Of a stretch of DNA of 64,000 nt, positions 16,848-51,820 are shown piece by piece. The DNA lies in IMG/VR virus record IMGVR_UViG_3300047089_000307, positions 94,652-158,651 of that record; one strand, 5' to 3'. The stretch comes from a virus. Made by a program: the position numbers and the translations under genes. Each line of letters starts with the position of its first letter. The stretch's first letter is position 1. The notes below the pieces were generated by a model, which had not been told where the DNA came from, made no database searches, and worked only from the letters and a program-made list of their open reading frames with translations.

Positions 16848-18089
16848 TTACCATCCGGCGATAGTCAGTGACCGCTCCGCCCTCGTCACCGCGGTGTACA
16901 GCCACCGGCTGCGCTCGCCAGTTCCGGGCGCCGGCCAGCCCTCCTCAATGACCAGCACCTTCTCGGCCGAACTTCCCTGTGCCTTGTGGGCTGTGAGTGC
17001 GTAGCCATAGTCAAAGAGCGCGACATGACGGTCCCTGACGCAGGATGCCTGGAACTTCGGGTCACCGAACGGCAGCGCTGATACCGTCCCCGACCACGGG
17101 CGGAGGAGGTCCTCGCATTCGATGACAGCCTGGAATGTGGCCTCACTACCGGGCCCTGTTACCCCTCCCACGGCCAGGATGGTCCCGCGCTGACCGTTGT
17201 ACAGGCCCTCTGCGTGGTTATTGCGAAGGCAGGTCACCGTATCGCCGACCTGCGGCGGCCCGGACCGGCCGTGCCACGCGCGCATCAGCTGGTTGTGCGC
17301 TGTCCTTGCGGCGTTAGTCGCGCAGATGATCAGGTCCGCCTCAGCCGGGTGCAGGCCGGCCAGCCCGGACTCATGCTCGGCCATCGTCAGCTTGACCGCA
17401 TCCGGCCCGTACCAGCCGGGCGGCACGTGGCCCTGCTCGCGCGCCCACCGCGCCATGGTGAGGATGGCCATGCCAGACGGGCTTTCCTCGTTCTGCCGGT
17501 GGATCTTCTCCAGCCGGATATCCGGGCTGGCCATCAAGTTGAAGGACGAGCGGACGGGCGGCAGCTGGCCGTGGTCGCCGACCGCCAGCACCGGAACGCC
17601 ATGGCCGGTCAGGTCCTTCCAGAGCTGCTCGGGGATCATCGATGCCTCGTCGGCCACGACCAGTCCGATGCCGGCGAGCGGCTCCGGCGCCGGCGTGAAG
17701 CTCAGCTGGCGGCGCACCGCGCACTCCCAGCCCCGTCCGGCGTGCGCGCGGCACTGAACGTCCGCCTCCTTCATTACCGTGTCACTCTCGGTGCACACCG
17801 TAACCTCACAGGCACGGTAGAGCAGCCGGTGCAGGGTGGACGCATGATCCGGGGGGACGTCACCGGGGAGCTTGCGCCGCAGCACGGACGTCGCCTTACC
17901 GGTGTAGGCGGCGAACGCGATCCGGATATCAGGCAGGAACTGCGGCAGGCAGCAGATCAGGCTAGTCTTCCCGGTTCCCGCCAGCCCGCCCAGGGTCAGC
18001 GGCGGCCAGCCCCCGGCCTCATGCCACGCCAGGATCTGCGTGAGCGCGCGGCGCTGGTCCGCGGACAGGGTCTCCGTCAGGTCAGTCAT
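16848..18089 (-). CDS. RecD/Dda-like SF1B DNA helicase
   Basis: GLAGTGKT Walker A, STLHRLLY, DEASM, GDHGQLPPV, LEKIHRQ, TAHKAQGS, LYTAVTRA; start MTDLTETLSADQ after TATCTT -10. Confidence 0.93.
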   Translation of the reverse strand: MTDLTETLSADQRRALTQILAWHEAGGWPPLTLGGLAGTGKTSLICCLPQFLPDIRIAFAAYTGKATSVLRRKLPGDVPPDHASTLHRLLYRACEVTVCTESDTVMKEADVQCRAHAGRGWECAVRRQLSFTPAPEPLAGIGLVVADEASMIPEQLWKDLTGHGVPVLAVGDHGQLPPVRSSFNLMASPDIRLEKIHRQNEESPSGMAILTMARWAREQGHVPPGWYGPDAVKLTMAEHESGLAGLHPAEADLIICATNAARTAHNQLMRAWHGRSGPPQVGDTVTCLRNNHAEGLYNGQRGTILAVGGVTGPGSEATFQAVIECEDLLRPWSGTVSALPFGDPKFQASCVRDRHVALFDYGYALTAHKAQGSSAEKVLVIEEGWPAPGTGERSRWLYTAVTRAERSLTIAGW

Positions 18090-18112
18090 AGACCCCAAGA
18101 TACCGGTAACAG

Positions 18113-18142
18113 GGCCCGGCACCGAGTGAAACGGCGCCGGGC
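18113..18142 (-). terminator. GC-rich hairpin closing the GGY-NN array
   Basis: gcccggcaccg-agtgaaa-cggcgccgggc inverted repeat next to a half copy of the array repeat. Confidence 0.55.
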
Positions 18143-19753
18143 TCCCGTGCCTGCCTAGCCAGGCCCGTCCTAGCCGAGCCATTCCTGCCGGGGCGGGCCG
18201 CGCCCAGCCCTGCCTAGCCTTGCGACGCCTGCCGAGCCTTGCCCAGCCGCGCCACGCCAAGCCCTGCCTGCCCAGCCGAGCCTAGCCCAGCCGCACCACG
18301 CCTAGCCATGCCTGCCACGCCAGACCTTGCCCTGCCTAGCCATGCCTGCCGGACCTCGCCTCACCTAGCCAAGCCATGCCGCGCCTGCCCTGCCGTGCCG
18401 CGCCGGGGCCTGCCGAGCCTAGCCATGCCTGCCTAGCCGAGCCCTGCCGAGCCTAGCCATGCCATGCCTGCCAGTCCTGGCCTTGCGTCACCCCGCCTTG
18501 CCCCGCCGTGTCCATCCCTTTTACGCCGGATGCTGCTGCTCCCGTGCCTGCCCGGCCACGCCAGACCTCGCCGCGCCTAACCTCACCTGCCCCGCCATGC
18601 CAGACCTTGCCGCGCCTAACCTCACCTGCCGCGCCAGACCTCGCCATGCCCTGCCGTGCCTAGCCGTGTCCATCCCTTTGCGCCGGATGCTGCTGCTCCC
18701 GTGCCTGCCGCGCCGCACCTGGCCATGGCTAACCTCACCGCGGCTGCCGAGCCGATCCCAGCCGTGCCTAGCCGTGCCGGCCCTGACCTCGCCTGCCCTG
18801 CCGCGCCGCGCCTGACCCAGCCAGGCCACGCCATGCCTGCCGCGCCGACGCGCGCCACCCCGTGCCAAGCCACGCCCTGCCTGCCGGTCCCCGCCTAGCC
18901 CCGCCTGGCCATGCCAGCCCGAGCCATGCCTGCCTTGCCAGACCTTGCCTCGCCGTGCCTTGCCGTGCCTGCCCGGCCTCGCCACATCGCGCCATGCCTC
19001 TCCTTGGCCAGCCTCGCCATGCCTGCCCCGCCTGGCCTCGCCGGACCCTGCCCTGCCGCGTCCATCCCTTTACGCCGGATGCTGCTGCTCCCGTCCCTGC
19101 CGGTCCCGGCCTAGCCTCACCGAGCCTGACCTGCCTGACCGCGCCATGACGCACCGAGCCTTACCGGTCCCTGCCTGCCATGCCACGCCACCCCGTGCCA
19201 AGCCCTACCTGCCCTGCCGCGCCGCGCCCTGCCGTGCCGTGCCTCGCCTGCCGCGCCTGGCCCTGCCGCACCGCACCATGCCACGTCCATCCCTTTACGC
19301 CGGATGCTGCTGCTCCCGTGCCGGCCAGACCTGCCGAGCCATGTCGTTCCGCTCCGCGCCATGCCCTGCCTGCCAAGCCACGCCCCACCCCGCCGAACCG
19401 AGCCATGCCTGCCAGGCCGTGCCGAGCCGCGCCTAGCCACGCCACGCCATGCCTGCCGGGCCATGACGCACCGCGCCTTGCCGCGCCACACCGTGCCTGC
19501 CCCGCCTTGCCAAGTCCATCCCTTTGCGCCGGATGCTGCTGCTCCCGTGCCTGCCCCGCCTAGCCAAGCCTTGCCACGCCGCGCCTTGCCTGCCGGGCCG
19601 GACCCCGCCGGGCCGGACCATGCCGAGCCGCACCATGCCGTGCCTGCCGGACCGGACCACGCCACGCCGCACCATGCCGTGCCTCGCCTGCCGCACCAAG
19701 CCTCGCCGGACCCCGCCTTGCCATGTCCATCCCTTTCAGCCGGATGCTGCTGC
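18113..19753 (-). ncRNA. non-coding GGY-NN pentamer array (putative guide-RNA array, VIPR-type vrRNA)
   Basis: Minus strand reads GGC AA GGC GG GGT CC GGC GA GGC TT GGT GC GGCA...; blocks separated by GGCA; 38-nt repeat at 18510, 18668, 19060, 19285, 19514 and a partial copy at 19725; downstream of a Cas7-like gene. Confidence 0.85.
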
Positions 19754-20203
19754 CTTCTTCACCTGCGCCTCGTGCTCGGCGATGACCTCGGCAAGCTCCT
19801 GCCAGAACTCGGGGTAGTCGCGGTACCGCTGGGCCATGGAGCGGACCTCGCGGCGGATGCGCAGCAGGATCAGGCCCTGCTCCTGCGTCGTGAGCGAGGT
19901 GACGCTGGAGTACGTGCCGGGCGGCGAGGGGATGCCGATCATCCGGTCGGCCACGTACTTGCGCATCATGACCGCGCGCTGGCCGCCGGACGCGACCTCG
20001 CGGACGACGGCCACCCGGTAGCTGCGGATCAGGCCGCGGGCCTCCTCCAGGCGGCGCTGCGCCGCGGCGATGGCGTCATCCCAGGTGAACAGCCCGTGCA
20101 GCGCGCTGTCCTCCGGCCGTGCTGCCGCCACGACCTCATCGGCGTGCAGCTTGCCGCGGGAGTCCTCCAGCCCCTTCAGGGCCTTCAGTACCTCATCCCT
20201 CAC
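19736..20203 (-). CDS. accessory protein coupled to the Cas7-like gene
   Basis: GTGA overlap, AAGGAG RBS; LHGLFTWDDAIAA...EARGLIRSY motif; stop codon lies inside the first array repeat. Confidence 0.85.
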   Translation of the reverse strand: MRDEVLKALKGLEDSRGKLHADEVVAAARPEDSALHGLFTWDDAIAAAQRRLEEARGLIRSYRVAVVREVASGGQRAVMMRKYVADRMIGIPSPPGTYSSVTSLTTQEQGLILLRIRREVRSMAQRYRDYPEFWQELAEVIAEHEAQVKKAAASG

Positions 20204-20892
20204 AGGACTATCTCCTTGACCTCGGCGTCGTCCGGCACCCGGAACGTGCCGTAGGAGCCAGTATTGGATTCCTTGCTGGCCGGGCGCCACTCGCCGATGC
20301 CCGCGAAGCCGGCGGCGTCCACCAGCGCGATGACGGACTCCAGCGTCAGCGAGTTGCGCACCCAGACCACCTCCAGCACCGCCGACCACGGCCAGTACTC
20401 CGGCCGGAAGCGGATGTCGGCGACGCCGGTCTCGTTGCGCGCGTAGTCCTGGCGCATCACCGCGGTGGCCGGGACGAGCGCCGACTCCTCGCCGGTCCAC
20501 TCCCCCCAGACGGGGACCAGCAGCGTGCGGTTCGCCTGGTCGGTGCCCGGCTCGCCGTTGACGAAGATCATCCGGCGCAGGTCCGTCATGGGCAGCTTGG
20601 AGCCCTTGAAGAACCGGGCCGCGTCCACGATGGCGGCCTTGAAGCCGACCGAGGGGAACGCGGGGGCGCCGCCGGGGAGCAGGTGCTGGGCGTCGCGGAA
20701 GTTCTGCTCCGGGTCCTTCGGCTGGCGCTCGACGGGCTTGCCCATCTGCCGGTCGAGCATGATCTGCTGGGCCTTGGCGCTGAACTTGTTGGTGATGAGC
20801 GGGGTGAGGCCCTGGACGGGCACCCGGATCATGGAGCGGCCGAGCCGCTGGAGCGAGATCGCGCCCGTGGTGGTGGCCTTCGCTGGGGGCAT
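20200..20892 (-). CDS. stand-alone Cas7/RAMP-like protein (Vipr-like effector)
   Basis: V.GLTPLI, FPSVGFKAAIVDAA, RPEYWPW and C-terminal G-rich loop AGFAGIGEWRP...GSYGTFRV typical of the RAMP fold; no other cas genes. Confidence 0.8.
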   Translation of the reverse strand: MPPAKATTTGAISLQRLGRSMIRVPVQGLTPLITNKFSAKAQQIMLDRQMGKPVERQPKDPEQNFRDAQHLLPGGAPAFPSVGFKAAIVDAARFFKGSKLPMTDLRRMIFVNGEPGTDQANRTLLVPVWGEWTGEESALVPATAVMRQDYARNETGVADIRFRPEYWPWSAVLEVVWVRNSLTLESVIALVDAAGFAGIGEWRPASKESNTGSYGTFRVPDDAEVKEIVL

Positions 20893-45967: not shown

Positions 45968-46507
45968 TCCAGTTAAAATACACTCTGGGCGCGTGCGTGA
46001 ACTCCAGCGATCCCAGCGTGCCGTCTGACTTGCGCGAGACGACCACGTACGGCGCCTGGAATCCCAGCACGTCGAATTCCTCTTGCAGCTGCTCGGTAGT
46101 CCACGTCTGCGTGGGCCATTGCCGGCTCAGGTCCCGGTGCGCCTGCGCGGCCTCGGGGGACTCGAACATCTTGCCGTCGCTCATGCGCCTGCCTCCGGCT
46201 TCTTCACGTGCCCCTGGAGGAGGAGCATGGACGCCGTGCGCCCGTAGCTCCCCTGAAGCTCCCAGGCCAGGCCGCTGTCCACCAGCTCCTGGAAGAAGGC
46301 GATGATCTCGTCATCGCTCATCTCCCCGTCCTCGTAGGCCATGATCTTGTCCACTAGGTCGTTCTTCACCGCGCTCACGGGATTGCCCTTTCTGTCTCTT
46401 AGAGTATCTTGCCTCGTCCCTGACGGGACAGTGAAGCGCCCGGTCCCTGGCGGGGGACCGGGCGCTCGGACTGCCGTGTCAGCAGTGACGTGGTATCTTG
46501 GAGTCTT

Positions 46508-46603
46508 AGTATGCGGTTGGGCAGGGCATGGCAGGACATGGGCTGGTGCGGCAGGCACGGAGAGCAGGCCCGTTTTCCTGAGTACGGGGAAGCGGGCCTG
46601 CTC
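46508..46603 (+). ncRNA. orphan GGY-NN unit (putative single guide RNA)
   Basis: TATCTT -10, then AGTATGC GGT TG GGC AG GGC AT GGC AG GAC AT GGG CT GGT GC GGCA GGCACGGAGAGC plus hairpin. Confidence 0.7.
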
Positions 46604-46608
46604 CTGTG

Positions 46609-47913
46609 TTAATCGACGCGCCCGCCCATTGACCACGCCCGGACACTCGGCGGGAAGTTCCCCGCCTGGTGCATGGGGACGGTATTTCTGACAAGCTCAT
46701 GCCAGGTCTTGCCGTCTCCGAGCTGGATCGTGGCGTGCTCGGCCGGACGCCGGACGTGGTACAAGCGGCCCCTCGCGTACGTGCGGCCGTTCAGCATCCG
46801 CATCTCGGTGACGCGGTGATTTACCTGGAGCACCAGTGTCATTCGCTGGGACGGGCCCGGCAGGTCTCGCGTCATCATCCCGGGCCGCGCGATGGCGAAC
46901 ACGTCGCCTTGCCTGAGTACGGCCCGGCCCGCTGCCTCGGCTGCCAGGACCTCCGGCGGCTTGAGTGCCTCCCGGGCCGCGGCTACCGTCTGCGGCCGGG
47001 CACCGCGGGGCAGCTCAGCCAGGAAGTACAGCGGCCGAGGCTCGTTCGTGTCGAACGCGGACAGGAAGTAGGCGTGCCTGCGGGTTTCATGGCCCTGGTC
47101 CCGGCCGAGGTAGCGGGTGTAACTGGCGCGGAACACCGACTCGCCGAGCCAGTGCCGCTGCTCGGTCCAGTGGTACAGGCCGTCCGCGCCTGGCGTGATC
47201 TCCTGGTAGTGGTCTTCCAGCGGCGCCTGGTATTCCGGGCCGGGTACCGGGAAGTTCTGATGGCCGTTCAGCGCGGAGTGGCGGCTGACGTGCCAGCCGC
47301 TGCCGCCGCCGATGGCCGAGTCCGGGTATGCCTTCCGGCCGTCATCCGCGACGGGCGGCGTGATTACCGCTCCGGTGGCGTCCCGCCAGGTGTGCTGCTT
47401 GCGGTGGCTCTCCGGCACGCCGTCCAGCGTGATCGCGGAGTGATCCTCCCTTGTCCATCGCTCGGGAAGCACCTCCACGGGGACGATCGTCTCCATGCTG
47501 ATGCCCGCCTCGCGCAGCGCGGAGAACGGCACGATGACCCATGGCGTGCCGGACTGCTGCGCGGCTTCGCGCATCATGGCGTTGTGGTTATTGGTCCGGC
47601 CGAAGCCGCCGCGGCCCCACCAGTCGCCGTTCAGTACCCACAGCTTCCGTGACCCGTCCTCGTTCAGGATCAGGCGGCCCAGCGGGAAGTGGCTTCCGTA
47701 GGACACGATCTCCGTGATCACGCCACCGTGGCTGTGGTAGTACAGGCTCGACCTGCCGCCGTCCGGGAACCGTGCCCGCAGGTGCCCCTTCTTGCCGTCC
47801 GGCTCGGTGCCATGCGGCTTCCCGGCGTACTGCACGAACCGGGGGATAATGTAGCTTGCGCCGCGACTTTCTTTTTTCATTTCATTTTCCCTTTCTTTTT
47901 CGTCACTCGCCAT
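46609..47913 (-). CDS. hypothetical phage protein (RQGDV motif)
   Basis: 434-aa ORF; VLRQGDVFAI, HxEH motif. Confidence 0.7.
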   Translation of the reverse strand: MASDEKERENEMKKESRGASYIIPRFVQYAGKPHGTEPDGKKGHLRARFPDGGRSSLYYHSHGGVITEIVSYGSHFPLGRLILNEDGSRKLWVLNGDWWGRGGFGRTNNHNAMMREAAQQSGTPWVIVPFSALREAGISMETIVPVEVLPERWTREDHSAITLDGVPESHRKQHTWRDATGAVITPPVADDGRKAYPDSAIGGGSGWHVSRHSALNGHQNFPVPGPEYQAPLEDHYQEITPGADGLYHWTEQRHWLGESVFRASYTRYLGRDQGHETRRHAYFLSAFDTNEPRPLYFLAELPRGARPQTVAAAREALKPPEVLAAEAAGRAVLRQGDVFAIARPGMMTRDLPGPSQRMTLVLQVNHRVTEMRMLNGRTYARGRLYHVRRPAEHATIQLGDGKTWHELVRNTVPMHQAGNFPPSVRAWSMGGRVD

Positions 47914-50269
47914 TGCAGAGGAATGTCACGCCATTCAGCGTCACTTCCTCGTAGGAGGTTTCCAGGAGACCGTCCTGGAGATCCCGGGCGAACCTTTTCG
48001 CTCGCCAGTACGGGGTCTCGGTGGCTTCTCCGTAGGCATCGTGGCTGCGGTATTTCGCGTACGTTGCCCAGTAGCTCTCGCGGACAACGGAGTCAGCCTT
48101 GCCGATGGCCGCGCGGAAGTCTCGCAGTTCCCTCAGCTCTTCGCTCAGCCCGGCGACTTCGTCTAGCGCGCCGTCATCCTGTCCGCCGGCCAGGAGCAGG
48201 AAGATCCTCGCCCGGATTCCGGTGACTCGCTCGTCCACGTCACGGGCGTACAGGATGTCCTCGCGGGACAGGTCGTGAATGTCCTTTGCCATGTGCCTTT
48301 CCTCTTCTCTCAGGCGCGGTTGAAGGCGACGAACCACCCGTTGCCGTGCGTGTCCTCGCGGGAGCAGTACTCCTGCGCGCTTTCCAGCGTGACGTTCTCT
48401 GCTATCAGCAGCTTTTCTTCCCCGGAGCGGAAGACATGGAGGTTCCGGTCGCCCGTTCCTTCTTCCGGTACGGCAGGGAGCCCGTACTTCGCCAGCACTT
48501 CGCTTTTGCCCACTTCTCCTTCTCTCTTTGCCGTGCCCTGACCGGGCGGCAAAGCGCCCCGTGCCTGGTAACCAGGCACGGGGCGCTCGGGCTGGGCGGT
48601 CAGTAAGCCGGGCCGAATACGGTGTCGTCCCAGCGGTCGGTGAACAGCTTCTCGTTCTCCTTCAGCTGCTCGCGCGCCCGGCGCAGTTCCGGCGACACGT
48701 AGTCCGGGTCGCCGTGCGCGCTGAGTGCGGCCCGGTTAGCCTCCCAGTCCGCCTGGTCAATGGCAGACCATGCCTGCGGCTGGTGACCGCTGGCCAGGGT
48801 CTCGCGAACCTCGGCTATGGCTGCGCGTGCTTCCCTGGCCTGCTCTTCCGTGAGCCCGTGCCAGGGTCGCTCCTGCTGCTCCGGTGACGGCCTGAGGGGC
48901 TGCCGCCGGGGCACGCGCATCAGCGGCGCGCACGACCTGCCGTTCGCCAGGCATTCCGGGGCGACCCGGCTACTGCACTGGCACCGGTCAGGCACGGACG
49001 GAAGCTCGCTGAACTGGTTCCCGGTCTTCTCGTGGAAGTCGGCCGCGTCCCGGTAGCCCCAGCTGGGACCGGTGGCCGCGCCGAACCGCGCGCCGGGGTC
49101 GGCGGCGAATATCTCCGCCATGAACCAGCCCCACTCATGCCACGTTGCCGCCCACACCGCCTCGCCGCGTGCCCGCTCGCTGGCCGCGCCGCGGTTGCCG
49201 CTGTTCTTGTACCGGCGCACTCGCAGGACCTTGCCGTGCTGGTCTCGCGTGCCGGGCGGCAGGGAGTGCTTGTCCAGCGTGCCGAGCTGCACCTGCACGG
49301 AGCGGGCGTGCGTCCGCGATGGCCGCGTGGCGAACGATGCGGTGAACACGATGTCCGGCGTTGCCAGGCCGGCCGCCTTCACGCGGTTCAGCGCGCTGTG
49401 GACCTGCTGCTCGGACAGGCTCGTGTAGAGCCTCACGAGATTGCCCGGCCTGGCAGCGTGCCAGCCTGGCGCACCGCTGGCGACACGTAATCCGGGTCCA
49501 GGTACGGGTCGCCTGGCCGCAGTGCCTCTTTCATGGCCTGCCACTGGACGAGCAGTGCCAGGAGCCCTACCTGAATCCGCTTGCGCAGGGTCCACTCGAT
49601 CATTTCCCTTTCCTTTCTGTGTGATTCGTTGCGTGATTGACCGGACAAGGAAGCGGCACCGGCTCGCTTGCGCGAGGCGGTGCCGCTCGGCTAACCAGGT
49701 CAGGTGGTGGCTTACGGGTAGTGGTAGGACGTAATGGTCTTCAGGCCCATGGATTCAGCGACCTCCTCCAGGGCGGCGGCGTAGCCGTCCCGGTAAGCCG
49801 GGTTTCGCCATTCGGCGCTCTTCTCGGCCTCTCGCAGGGCGGTCGTCATCGCCTCCGCCAGGCTGGATAGCTGGTACTCGGCTGTGTCGGCCATGCTCAT
49901 GTCGTTTCCCCCTCTTCGATAGCCGGCACCGGAAGCGGCTCGCCCCGGTACGTCCCGATGAGCGAGTACCGCCAGTTGATGTGCTGCGCTGTGTCCGGTA
50001 GCCTCACGGGCGGCCCGTCCGTCCCGAAGTAGGCGGCCGGGCTGCCGTAGCTGGCGATCCGGATGTCGCCGGCGTCCCGGTGAGACAAGTCGTGGTTCTG
50101 GAAAACGGCCACGCCGTCTCCGCGGGCCAGCCACTGGTTGACCTTCCCGGTGATCTCCCCGGTTCCCTCCGGCCCGTATTCCTCGAAGAGGCAGGCAGCC
50201 AGTTCTCCGGCGGTGAATTCCGTTGCCATGGGTTTTTCCTTTCTCAGTATCTTGCGGTAGTATGGAGGG

Positions 50270-50344
50270 AGTATGCGGTATGGTTTGGCCAGGCAAGGTC
50301 AGGTGAGCCCTGGCGGGGCCAGGCAGGCGTGGGACTCCACCTGG
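50270..50344 (+). ncRNA. orphan GGY-NN unit (putative single guide RNA)
   Basis: TAGTAT -10, then AGTATGC GGT AT GGT TT GGC CA GGC AA GGT CA GGT GA GCC CT GGC GG GGC CA GGCA GGC GTGG-GACT-CCAC. Confidence 0.75.
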
Positions 50345-51820
50345 TCACAGCACGTCTGTGGCCAGGTGGTGGCCTAGCCTGAGTGCGTTGGCCATGACGG
50401 TCAGCGCAGGATTCGTTGCTCCTACGGACGGCATGAACGAGCTGTCCGTGACGTACAGGTTGCGCACGTCCCAGGTCTGGCAGAACGGGTCCAGAACGGA
50501 TGTTGCCGGGTCGGTGCCGAATCGCAGGGTCCCCGCCTGGTGGGCCACGGCCGTCAGCGGCATCATCTTGCGCAGGAACAGCGCGTCCACGCCGGAAGCC
50601 CAGAGCATCTTCTTGGTGGCCGCGTACAGCTGGTGCGCCGCGCGCTGGCTCGTCTGCGTGACCGACAGCCGGATGGTGCCGTCAGCGTCCAGCGTGACCC
50701 GGTTCTCCGGCCGGGGCAGGTCCTCGGTGGACAGCCAGAAGTCCAGCGCGTGCGCGGCGACCTTCTCCAGTGACCAGCCCGGGGCCAGCGCGGCCAGCCG
50801 GGACTCGCCCCTCATGGCTTCTGCTGAGCTTTTTCCCAGCATCTGGATGCAGCCCAACCCCTCGTTGTAGAAATCGTTGATGCATAGCGTCTTCTGGAAG
50901 ACGGTCGGGTTCGGTTCTGGAGTAATGGCCATGACCGCTTGCGACAGGTGGGACATGTAGTTGCGTCCTACCTGTCCAGAGCTGTTGGCCAGTCCTGACC
51001 GCAGTAGGATCGCGGCGCTGTTGACCGCGCCGGCCGCCAGCACGATGATGTTCGCGCTGTGCAGCTCGCGGTATTTCTCGCCGTCCTCGTCCGTGCGCAC
51101 TACGTCCACCCAGCGTGCCTGGCCTCCGGGGGCTATGATGCGCCTGACTCTCGTATTCGTCATCAGCGTGACGTTGTCCATCCCCAGCAGCGGGCGTACC
51201 GCGACCGTCTCCGCGTCGCTTTTGGCTCCCAGCTGGCAGGCGAACCCGTCGCAGGTCCCGCACAGGATGCAGCCCTTAGCCGTCAGCACGCCGGCCGGCG
51301 CGTGGAACGGGTGGTAGCCCGCCCGGGTCAGGTCATCGGACAGCTGCTGGATGCGCGGCTCGTGCGGGACGGCCGGCAGCGGGTACTGCCTGCTCCAGCT
51401 TCCCTCCGTGGGGTCCTCACCGTGGTGCCCGCGGACGGAGTACATCTGCTCGGCCTCGTCGTACCATGGCCCCATGTCGGTGTAGCCCAGCGGCCACGCA
51501 GGGGAGATCCCGTCTGTCTCCTGGCGGGCCTCGAAGTCACGCGGGCGCAGCCGGAACAAGGCTGCGCCGAACAACTTGGTGGCTCCGCCTACGTAGTAGT
51601 GCGCCTGCGGCTGGAATGGCTTCCCGTGCTTATCGCGCCAGGTGTCCTTGCTGACGTACCGGCCGTTGCCGAACACTTCCTTTGCGTCCCAGTTCTCCGG
51701 TTCGCGGGGCAGGAATCCTCCGCGCTCGATGATGGCGATCCGCTTGCCCGTCTTTGCTAGCACGCTGGCCAGCGTTCCGCCGCCGGCCCCTGAGCCGACG
51801 ATGATGACGTCGTAGTGCAT
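50345..51820 (-). CDS. GMC-family FAD oxidoreductase
   Basis: DVIIVGSGAGG, VGGATK, LAAGAVNSA, VGRNYM.H, AHQAGTLRFG, NPALTVMANALR. Confidence 0.93.
   Translation of the reverse strand: MHYDVIIVGSGAGGGTLASVLAKTGKRIAIIERGGFLPREPENWDAKEVFGNGRYVSKDTWRDKHGKPFQPQAHYYVGGATKLFGAALFRLRPRDFEARQETDGISPAWPLGYTDMGPWYDEAEQMYSVRGHHGEDPTEGSWSRQYPLPAVPHEPRIQQLSDDLTRAGYHPFHAPAGVLTAKGCILCGTCDGFACQLGAKSDAETVAVRPLLGMDNVTLMTNTRVRRIIAPGGQARWVDVVRTDEDGEKYRELHSANIIVLAAGAVNSAAILLRSGLANSSGQVGRNYMSHLSQAVMAITPEPNPTVFQKTLCINDFYNEGLGCIQMLGKSSAEAMRGESRLAALAPGWSLEKVAAHALDFWLSTEDLPRPENRVTLDADGTIRLSVTQTSQRAAHQLYAATKKMLWASGVDALFLRKMMPLTAVAHQAGTLRFGTDPATSVLDPFCQTWDVRNLYVTDSSFMPSVGATNPALTVMANALRLGHHLATDVL

What the first reader, a model, noticed from the sequence alone, without database searches (positions are those of the whole stretch)
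18141..19753. Three-level grammar of the array: pentamers, GGCA separators and a 38-nt hairpin repeat overlapping the upstream stop codon
Runs of mostly 5-10 pentamers end in a 4-nt GGCA that breaks the phase. Groups of runs are separated by GGCACGGGAGCAGCAGCATCCGGCGYAAAGGGATGGAC (CATCC/GGATG stem) at 18510, 18668, 19060, 19285 and 19514. A partial copy at 19725 overlaps the last codons (AAASG*) of the partner gene, and a half copy at 18141 runs into a terminal hairpin. Spacing is irregular (158-392 nt). Inference: the long repeat and/or GGCA mark processing sites that define individual guides, and the repeat arose from the gene end by duplication.
Basis: partly seen in the sequence, partly recalled or inferred. 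Interest (0 to 1): 0.8.

Follow-up and report, generated by a model that had tools for sequence, protein, structure and literature searches.

The report
Phage VIPR array with repeated leader
A soil phage carries a VIPR guide-RNA array (a CRISPR-related DNA-silencing system published in 2026) whose short-guide punctuation is already described, but it also repeats six times a small, apparently undescribed start element that relatives carry only once, which points to how such arrays begin and grow.

Summary
Observation confirmed. The minus strand holds about 35 units, nearly all of 6-10 GGY-NN pentamers; 34 of 35 end in a 4-nt GGCA. The array follows a Vipr gene (profile hit to SUSP1 Vipr, PDB 36pp) and a partner gene. 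This is a VIPR system, and the GGCA level fits the published 'staggered' array with 1-nt overlap; this scan saw such arrays before in two other phages. The 38-nt repeat is composite: the array's own 3' end motif (9-11 nt) joined head-to-tail to a roughly 29-nt leader. I found no description of that leader. It heads GGY-NN tracts, as one copy, in 14 other loci: eight in one Vipr subclade and six solo guides, four with a -10-like hexamer just upstream. So GGCA, not the long repeat, most likely delimits guides; the repeat marks cassette junctions. Gene-end origin is only partly right: overlap with the partner gene looks ancestral, but the leader is free-standing in eight loci. The 5-bp stem is weak and lacks covariation. 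No guide target was found and no RNA data were available. New variant of a known kind.

The parts
20200..20892 (-). vipr gene, 230 aa RAMP/Cas7-like guide-binding protein
   Evidence: Profile of 120 homologues hits only SUSP1 Vipr 36pp_D, E 4.7e-9; AlphaFold model pLDDT 91 matches Csm/Cas7-family chains; phrog_4652
19736..20203 (-). partner (vap-type) gene, 155 aa, ends AAASG-stop
   Evidence: Translation; phrog_15946; follows vipr in most relatives
19725..19753 (-). head copy of the leader (box A, 5-nt loop holding the stop codon, box B)
   Evidence: Alignment with leaders of 14 other loci
19552..19722 (-). block 1: four guide units
   Evidence: parse
19514..19551 (-). junction copy 1 (array-end motif + leader)
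19323..19511 (-). block 2: four units plus two stubs (14 and 9 nt)
19285..19322 (-). junction copy 2
19098..19282 (-). block 3: five units
19060..19097 (-). junction copy 3 (one substitution)
18706..19057 (-). block 4: eight units
18668..18705 (-). junction copy 4
18549..18665 (-). block 5: three units, two of them a 39-nt tandem duplicate
18510..18548 (-). junction copy 5 (one extra A in the loop)
18152..18507 (-). block 6: nine units
18109..18151 (-). array-end motif (the 'half copy') and terminal G+C-rich hairpin
   Evidence: fold z -3.1; the same GGCA + one pentamer + GGGA/GGAG + hairpin ending is seen in two solo guides of this genome and in L003
46515..46553 (+). solo guide unit without the leader, followed by an end motif and hairpin
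50277..50325 (+). second solo guide unit without the leader, followed by an end motif and hairpin

Best explanation
This is the guide array of a phage VIPR system. Shown: the anatomy, the Vipr homology, the composite nature of the 38-nt repeat and the distribution of its leader half. From the literature: Vipr protomers polymerise on the GGY of each pentamer and the NN pairs read double-stranded DNA with one skipped base, silencing transcription. Inferred: vipr, the partner gene and the array form one transcript; each 4-nt GGCA puts neighbouring Vipr filaments one base out of register, and cutting there frees 35-55-nt guides that share one G and read 12-20 bases each. The long repeat is not a per-guide signal. 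It is the head-to-tail junction of a cassette (leader, several guides, end motif). The leader is a subclade-specific RNA element that sets or protects the 5' end of the first guide, most likely by being recognised by a protein (Vipr, the partner, or a host RNase) rather than through a stable stem. The array grew by adding cassettes, through tandem amplification or recombination at the leader, and the six blocks are probably released as sub-arrays before GGCA cutting.
For: Vipr homology. GGCA separators in 77 of 87 homologous loci; staggered arrays published. The 5' part of the repeat is identical to the array's true end at 18141-18151 and resembles the ends of two solo guides and of L003. All five internal copies follow a 4-nt unit. 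The leader heads a GGY-NN tract in 14 other loci whose upstream flanks are unrelated, as one copy. All 14 continue with YRYGG against 0 of 39 chance matches (partly circular, as I chose them by their pentamers). A TAnnnT hexamer lies 8-10 nt upstream in 4 of 6 solo leaders, 0 of 8 gene-linked leaders and 1 of 39 chance hits, which places the leader at a transcript start. Leader-bearing Vipr proteins cluster: 9 of 87 rows, 2 changes against 8.7 shuffled (quick tree). Junction copies differ from each other at no more than a few positions while blocks share no more pentamer triples than chance (2 against 0.96, P 0.26).
Against: No RNA ends were available. No target was found for any guide, so the units are not shown to work as separate guides. 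Unrelated blocks do not fit recent simple duplication; they need guide turnover or import. The stem has no compensatory change. The leader is dispensable in kin (L141, L142) and in this genome's two solo guides. Much of the leader's invariance was imposed by my search pattern. Two relatives (L002, L087) end inside their arrays, so 'one copy' is sure only for the six complete arrays.
Confidence: 0.62

Rival explanations
1. The internal copies are neutral scars of head-to-tail duplication, kept alike by recent origin or gene conversion. Only the head copy matters, and processing relies on GGCA alone.
For: Multiplied only in this genome; all complete relatives have one copy. Both stub units lie next to copies. 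In the internal copies the upstream end motif competes with the stem. The end motif is cut off from its terminal hairpin.
Against: Five near-identical junctions persist while the guides between them are no more alike than chance.
Confidence: 0.2
2. The leader is a small self-cleaving ribozyme of an undescribed class, filling the slot that hammerheads fill in some type I and V VIPR arrays.
For: Hammerhead-interspersed VIPR arrays are published. The element has two conserved boxes around a loop of 5-22 nt that can hold its own hairpin (L006), and it sits exactly between mRNA and first guide.
Against: About 29 nt with a single 5-bp stem; no Rfam match; no hammerhead core motifs by inspection; no covariation; solo copies already have a promoter-defined 5' end.
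Confidence: 0.1
3. One reading: the repeat is a duplicated piece of the partner gene's end, conserved as AAASG codons, that became a CRISPR-repeat-like processing mark for guides.
For: Overlap with the partner gene here and in L003, L005, L006, L087, L138 and L145; there the box A changes are synonymous; partner proteins commonly end in Ala (22 of 66 end in AA). Overlap is the state of the outgroups on the tree.
Against: Box B is always non-coding; the element is free of the gene in L001, L002 and six solo loci; 9 of 38 nt derive from the array end; internal loops (GYAAA) match L002, not the head copy (TGAAA); there are 35 units but only 6 copies.
Confidence: 0.08

Closest known systems
VIPR systems with staggered vrRNA arrays (bioRxiv 10.64898/2026.04.26.720920, fig. 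S18 legend)
   Same: vipr + vap two-gene operon in a phage; GGY/NN repeats; units joined with a 1-nt overlap, which is the 4-nt GGCA unit seen here.
   Different: Units are short (6-10 pentamers against 9-16 reported for type II and a mode of 8-11 in homologues). A conserved 5' leader, repeated six times, is not mentioned in the text or legends of the VIPR papers I read (figures are not held).
Hammerhead-interspersed VIPR arrays, types I and V (same paper, fig. S19)
   Same: A conserved non-pentamer element sits between stretches of guides.
   Different: The element here has no hammerhead core and no Rfam match, and it separates groups of 3-9 units rather than single guides.
Type II (SUSP1, P. 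fulva) vrRNA with invariant 3' tail, and solo vrRNAs (bioRxiv 10.64898/2026.10.15.759431; structure 10.64898/2026.04.26.720927)
   Same: A roughly 40-nt conserved element travels with guides and also marks solo guides that lack vipr.
   Different: There it is a 3' pseudoknot cap on every guide; here the conserved element is 5' of the tract and once per cassette.
CRISPR arrays with Cas7-family RAMPs
   Same: RAMP fold; a multi-guide precursor with repeats.
   Different: No spacers of fixed length, irregular spacing, no neighbouring cas1/cas2/cas6 seen among the ORFs examined; specificity is in interleaved NN pairs.

Membership tests
VIPR | Vipr RAMP protein | tested here: met
   Profile hit to SUSP1 Vipr, E 4.7e-9, over the C-terminal 65 positions; Cas7/Csm-like fold
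VIPR | Minimal vipr + vap operon in a virus | tested here: met
   Two overlapping genes; G000 is a virus record. The partner's homology to a named vap type was not established
VIPR | Adjacent tandem GGY/NN tract | tested here: met
   215 of 240 pentamers start with GGY; 199 against 11.8 expected
VIPR | NN pairs match natural targets under the 1-nt skip rule | tested here: inconclusive
   No excess of skip-1 over skip-0, 2, 3 in the own genome, 0.64 Mb of VIPR loci, 0.29 Mb of terminase regions and 0.75 Mb of related phages; the true rivals may not be in these sets
VIPR | RNA is expressed and bound by Vipr | not testable with these tools
   No RNA holder listed
VIPR, staggered array | Units joined by a 1-nt overlap | tested here: met
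   34 of 35 phase breaks are GGCA followed by G
VIPR, staggered array | Processed RNA ends fall at the overlaps | not testable with these tools
   No RNA data
VIPR, hammerhead-interspersed array | Hammerhead ribozyme between guides | tested here: not met
   No Rfam hit in the array at E up to 10 except a chance M23 match; none at gathering score in 20 related loci
VIPR type II | Invariant 3' tail after each guide | tested here: not met
   The conserved element precedes tracts in all 15 loci; single units have no tail
CRISPR array | Regular repeat-spacer period | tested here: not met
   Spacing 158-392 nt, filled with pentamers

The most novel reading that the evidence does not exclude
The 29-nt leader is a new functional RNA class (a self-cleaving or nuclease-directing element) that makes leader-guides-end cassettes portable. 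Solo cassettes and other phages' cassettes are captured by recombination at the leader or through a circular intermediate, and this array records five such acquisitions. That would be a first visible trace of how VIPR arrays gain guides and a third route of vrRNA maturation.
Probability: 0.17. Interest if true: 0.75.

Novelty: new variant of a known kind. Interest (0 to 1): 0.42.

Why it matters
In the papers I read, how staggered VIPR arrays are cut and how they acquire new guides is not explained. This locus gives sharp, testable boundaries: 34 GGCA sites set against 10 in-phase GGCAG pentamers that are not breaks, five identical end-to-leader junctions, and a leader that also flags solo guides. 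The leader is a ready search handle for solo vrRNAs of this subclade. The two lower levels of the 'grammar' are already published, which caps the interest.

Tried and rejected
Target decoding failed everywhere. Own genome and VIPR loci, terminase neighbourhoods of 28 related contigs and 0.75 Mb of related phage genomes showed no advantage of skip-1 over the control skips. The longest guide (20 specified bases) had 0 exact hits in IMG/VR and one 3-mismatch hit in 16 records. A 16-base guide had 8 hits in unrelated, mostly low-GC contigs, read as chance. Relaxed leader scans with free stem positions returned only chance hits plus one known locus, so no compensatory variants were found. Rfam gave nothing. 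No RNA holder listed. Short-sided joints among laid contigs were not used, since they probably come from other VIPR arrays. The sigma-70 scan found no promoter, and no terminator-like site at the array; the terminal hairpin has no T run. Blocks as recent duplicates of each other: rejected (P 0.26). Leader as a two-box promoter or operator: unlikely, because the spacing varies from 5 to 22 nt and solo copies have their own -10-like hexamer. Known ribozymes (twister, pistol, HDV-like, hatchet): compared from memory only, no likeness seen. The open frames across the array were treated as by-products of the repeat and not tested. The careful tree did not finish; the quick tree was used. The Dda-like helicase downstream was not examined as a system component.

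Full report
Setting. The window is the last 64 kb of a 158,651-nt virus record found in soil and rhizosphere metagenomes. High G+C and nearest cultured Vipr homologues in Mycobacterium and Gordonia phages suggest an actinobacterial host; that is an inference.

Observation. On the minus strand, 19722 to 18152 is a GGY-NN pentamer array. A tolerant parse gives 35 units, 34 closed by GGCA and one by GGCC; 33 are 34-54 nt long and two are stubs. GGY pairs at 5-nt distance number 199 against 11.8 in shuffles. Independent contigs reproduce most blocks without differences and break at the repeats, so the blocks are real although their order is not independently shown.

What it is. The gene at 20200-20892 is a Vipr: a profile of 120 homologues hits one PDB sequence, SUSP1 Vipr, at E 4.7e-9, and a confident model resembles Csm/Cas7 chains. 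With the overlapping 155-aa partner gene and the array this is a VIPR system as described in bioRxiv 10.64898/2026.04.26.720920. That paper reports staggered arrays in which guides derive from positions overlapping by one nucleotide. A 4-nt GGCA followed by G is that arrangement. It is the norm in this branch: 836 of about 1,200 four-nt units, and at least two GGCA in 77 of 87 loci. Within this array, repeated pentamer triples exceed chance (6 against 1.2, P 0.0005), mostly between neighbouring units, and one pair is an exact 39-nt separator-to-separator duplicate. Ten in-phase GGCAG pentamers are not breaks, so the signal is the phase shift or the base after GGCAG.

The third level. The 38-mer is composite. 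Its first 11 nt are identical to the true end of the array at 18141-18151, which leads into a strong hairpin. Two solo guides elsewhere in this genome (46515, 50277) and relative L003 end the same way: GGCA, one pentamer, a purine-rich motif, then a hairpin. The remaining 29 nt, overlapping the end motif by two bases, are a leader of two boxes around a 5-22-nt loop. It heads the array, as one copy, in eight Vipr-linked relatives at 58-89% protein identity, which form one subclade (9 of 87 rows, 2 changes against 8.7 shuffled). A scan of metagenomes also found it in front of six short pentamer tracts with no vipr in the DNA held, 1.6-4.6 kb each. Four of these six have a TAnnnT hexamer 8-10 nt upstream, against 0 of 8 gene-linked leaders and 1 of 39 chance hits. 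The leader is thus a 5' module of the guide RNA, and each internal copy is an end-to-leader junction of a cassette.

Gene-end origin. The head copy overlaps AAASG-stop here and in six relatives, where box A varies only synonymously, and this overlap is the state of the outgroups. Partner proteins often end in Ala-Ala (22 of 66), so box A may have started as codons. But box B is always non-coding, the element is free of the gene in L001, L002 and all six solo loci, and the five internal loops match the non-coding leader of L002 rather than the stop-bearing head copy. The internal copies are copies of a leader, not scraps of a gene.

Structure. The CATCC/GGATG stem is the consensus fold, with one wobble change in three loci and no compensatory change. 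It is not the predicted fold in the internal copies tested. Relaxed scans found no stem variants. Rfam has no match. 'Hairpin' is therefore a hypothesis, and my search pattern fixed much of the apparent conservation.

How it most likely works. Published: Vipr coats GGY, and NN pairs read DNA with one skipped base to silence transcription. Inferred: one transcript carries both genes and the array; filaments fall out of register at each GGCA and the RNA is cut there into short guides; the leader sets or protects the first guide's 5' end, probably through protein recognition; internal junctions divide the precursor into six sub-arrays and record growth by cassette addition. The junctions are nearly identical whereas the blocks share no more than chance (P 0.26), which fits selection on the junctions, homogenisation, or import of foreign cassettes; I cannot separate these.

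Targets. None found in four sequence sets with skip controls or in two collection scans. The guides are short and the real rivals may be unsampled, so this neither supports nor refutes the unit boundaries.

Comparison and verdict. Membership in VIPR is met on protein, operon and repeat; targets are inconclusive and RNA was not testable. It differs from hammerhead-interspersed arrays and from type II arrays with 3' tails. Paper searches returned only four VIPR-related preprints, and I found no mention of a 5' leader in the parts read; figures were not available. Earlier notes of this scan report staggered VIPR arrays in two other phages and no look-alike of the leader elsewhere. Verdict: new variant of a known kind, interest 0.42.

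Noticed in passing
window 46490-46610 and 50245-50380 (+): Two solo guide units without the leader. Both are preceded by TATCTT/TAGTAT -10-like hexamers and the same 7 nt (AGTATGC), and closed by GGCA, one pentamer and a hairpin.
   Followed up: partly
window 18089-18104 (-): A TATCTT hexamer lies 6-7 nt before the ATG of the Dda-like helicase, suggesting its own leaderless transcript rather than read-through from the array.
   Followed up: no
partner genes of 66 loci: Partner proteins usually end in Ala (22 of 66 in AA), like a ClpXP-type C-terminal degradation tag (from memory); the leader subclade extends this to AAASG(x).
   Followed up: no
window 18152-19722: The dinucleotide CG is nearly absent from NN positions (3 of 240) despite the high G+C content, while AT and TA are common; the first NN after GGCA is biased to AT (11 of 33).
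   Followed up: no
L002:2220-3600: In the nearest relative the leader and array follow vipr directly, with no partner gene between them.
   Followed up: partly
L024:4228-7573 (G012): A very long staggered array (over 3.3 kb, at least 49 GGCA units) plus two further pentamer tracts in the same phage; no leader match.
   Followed up: no
L001:72-4470: A cluster of 28 tRNA genes lies directly upstream of vipr in a close relative.
   Followed up: no
L099:1800-2100 and L137 (minus strand, 800-1100): Solo leader-guides sit just after what look by eye like a GntR-type regulator gene and an IS transposase gene, so they may reside on non-phage elements.
   Followed up: no
phage collection: Mycobacterium phages such as Saal and Donkeykong carry a 39% identical Vipr homologue but gave no hit with the partner protein; Gordonia phages gave both.
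   Followed up: no
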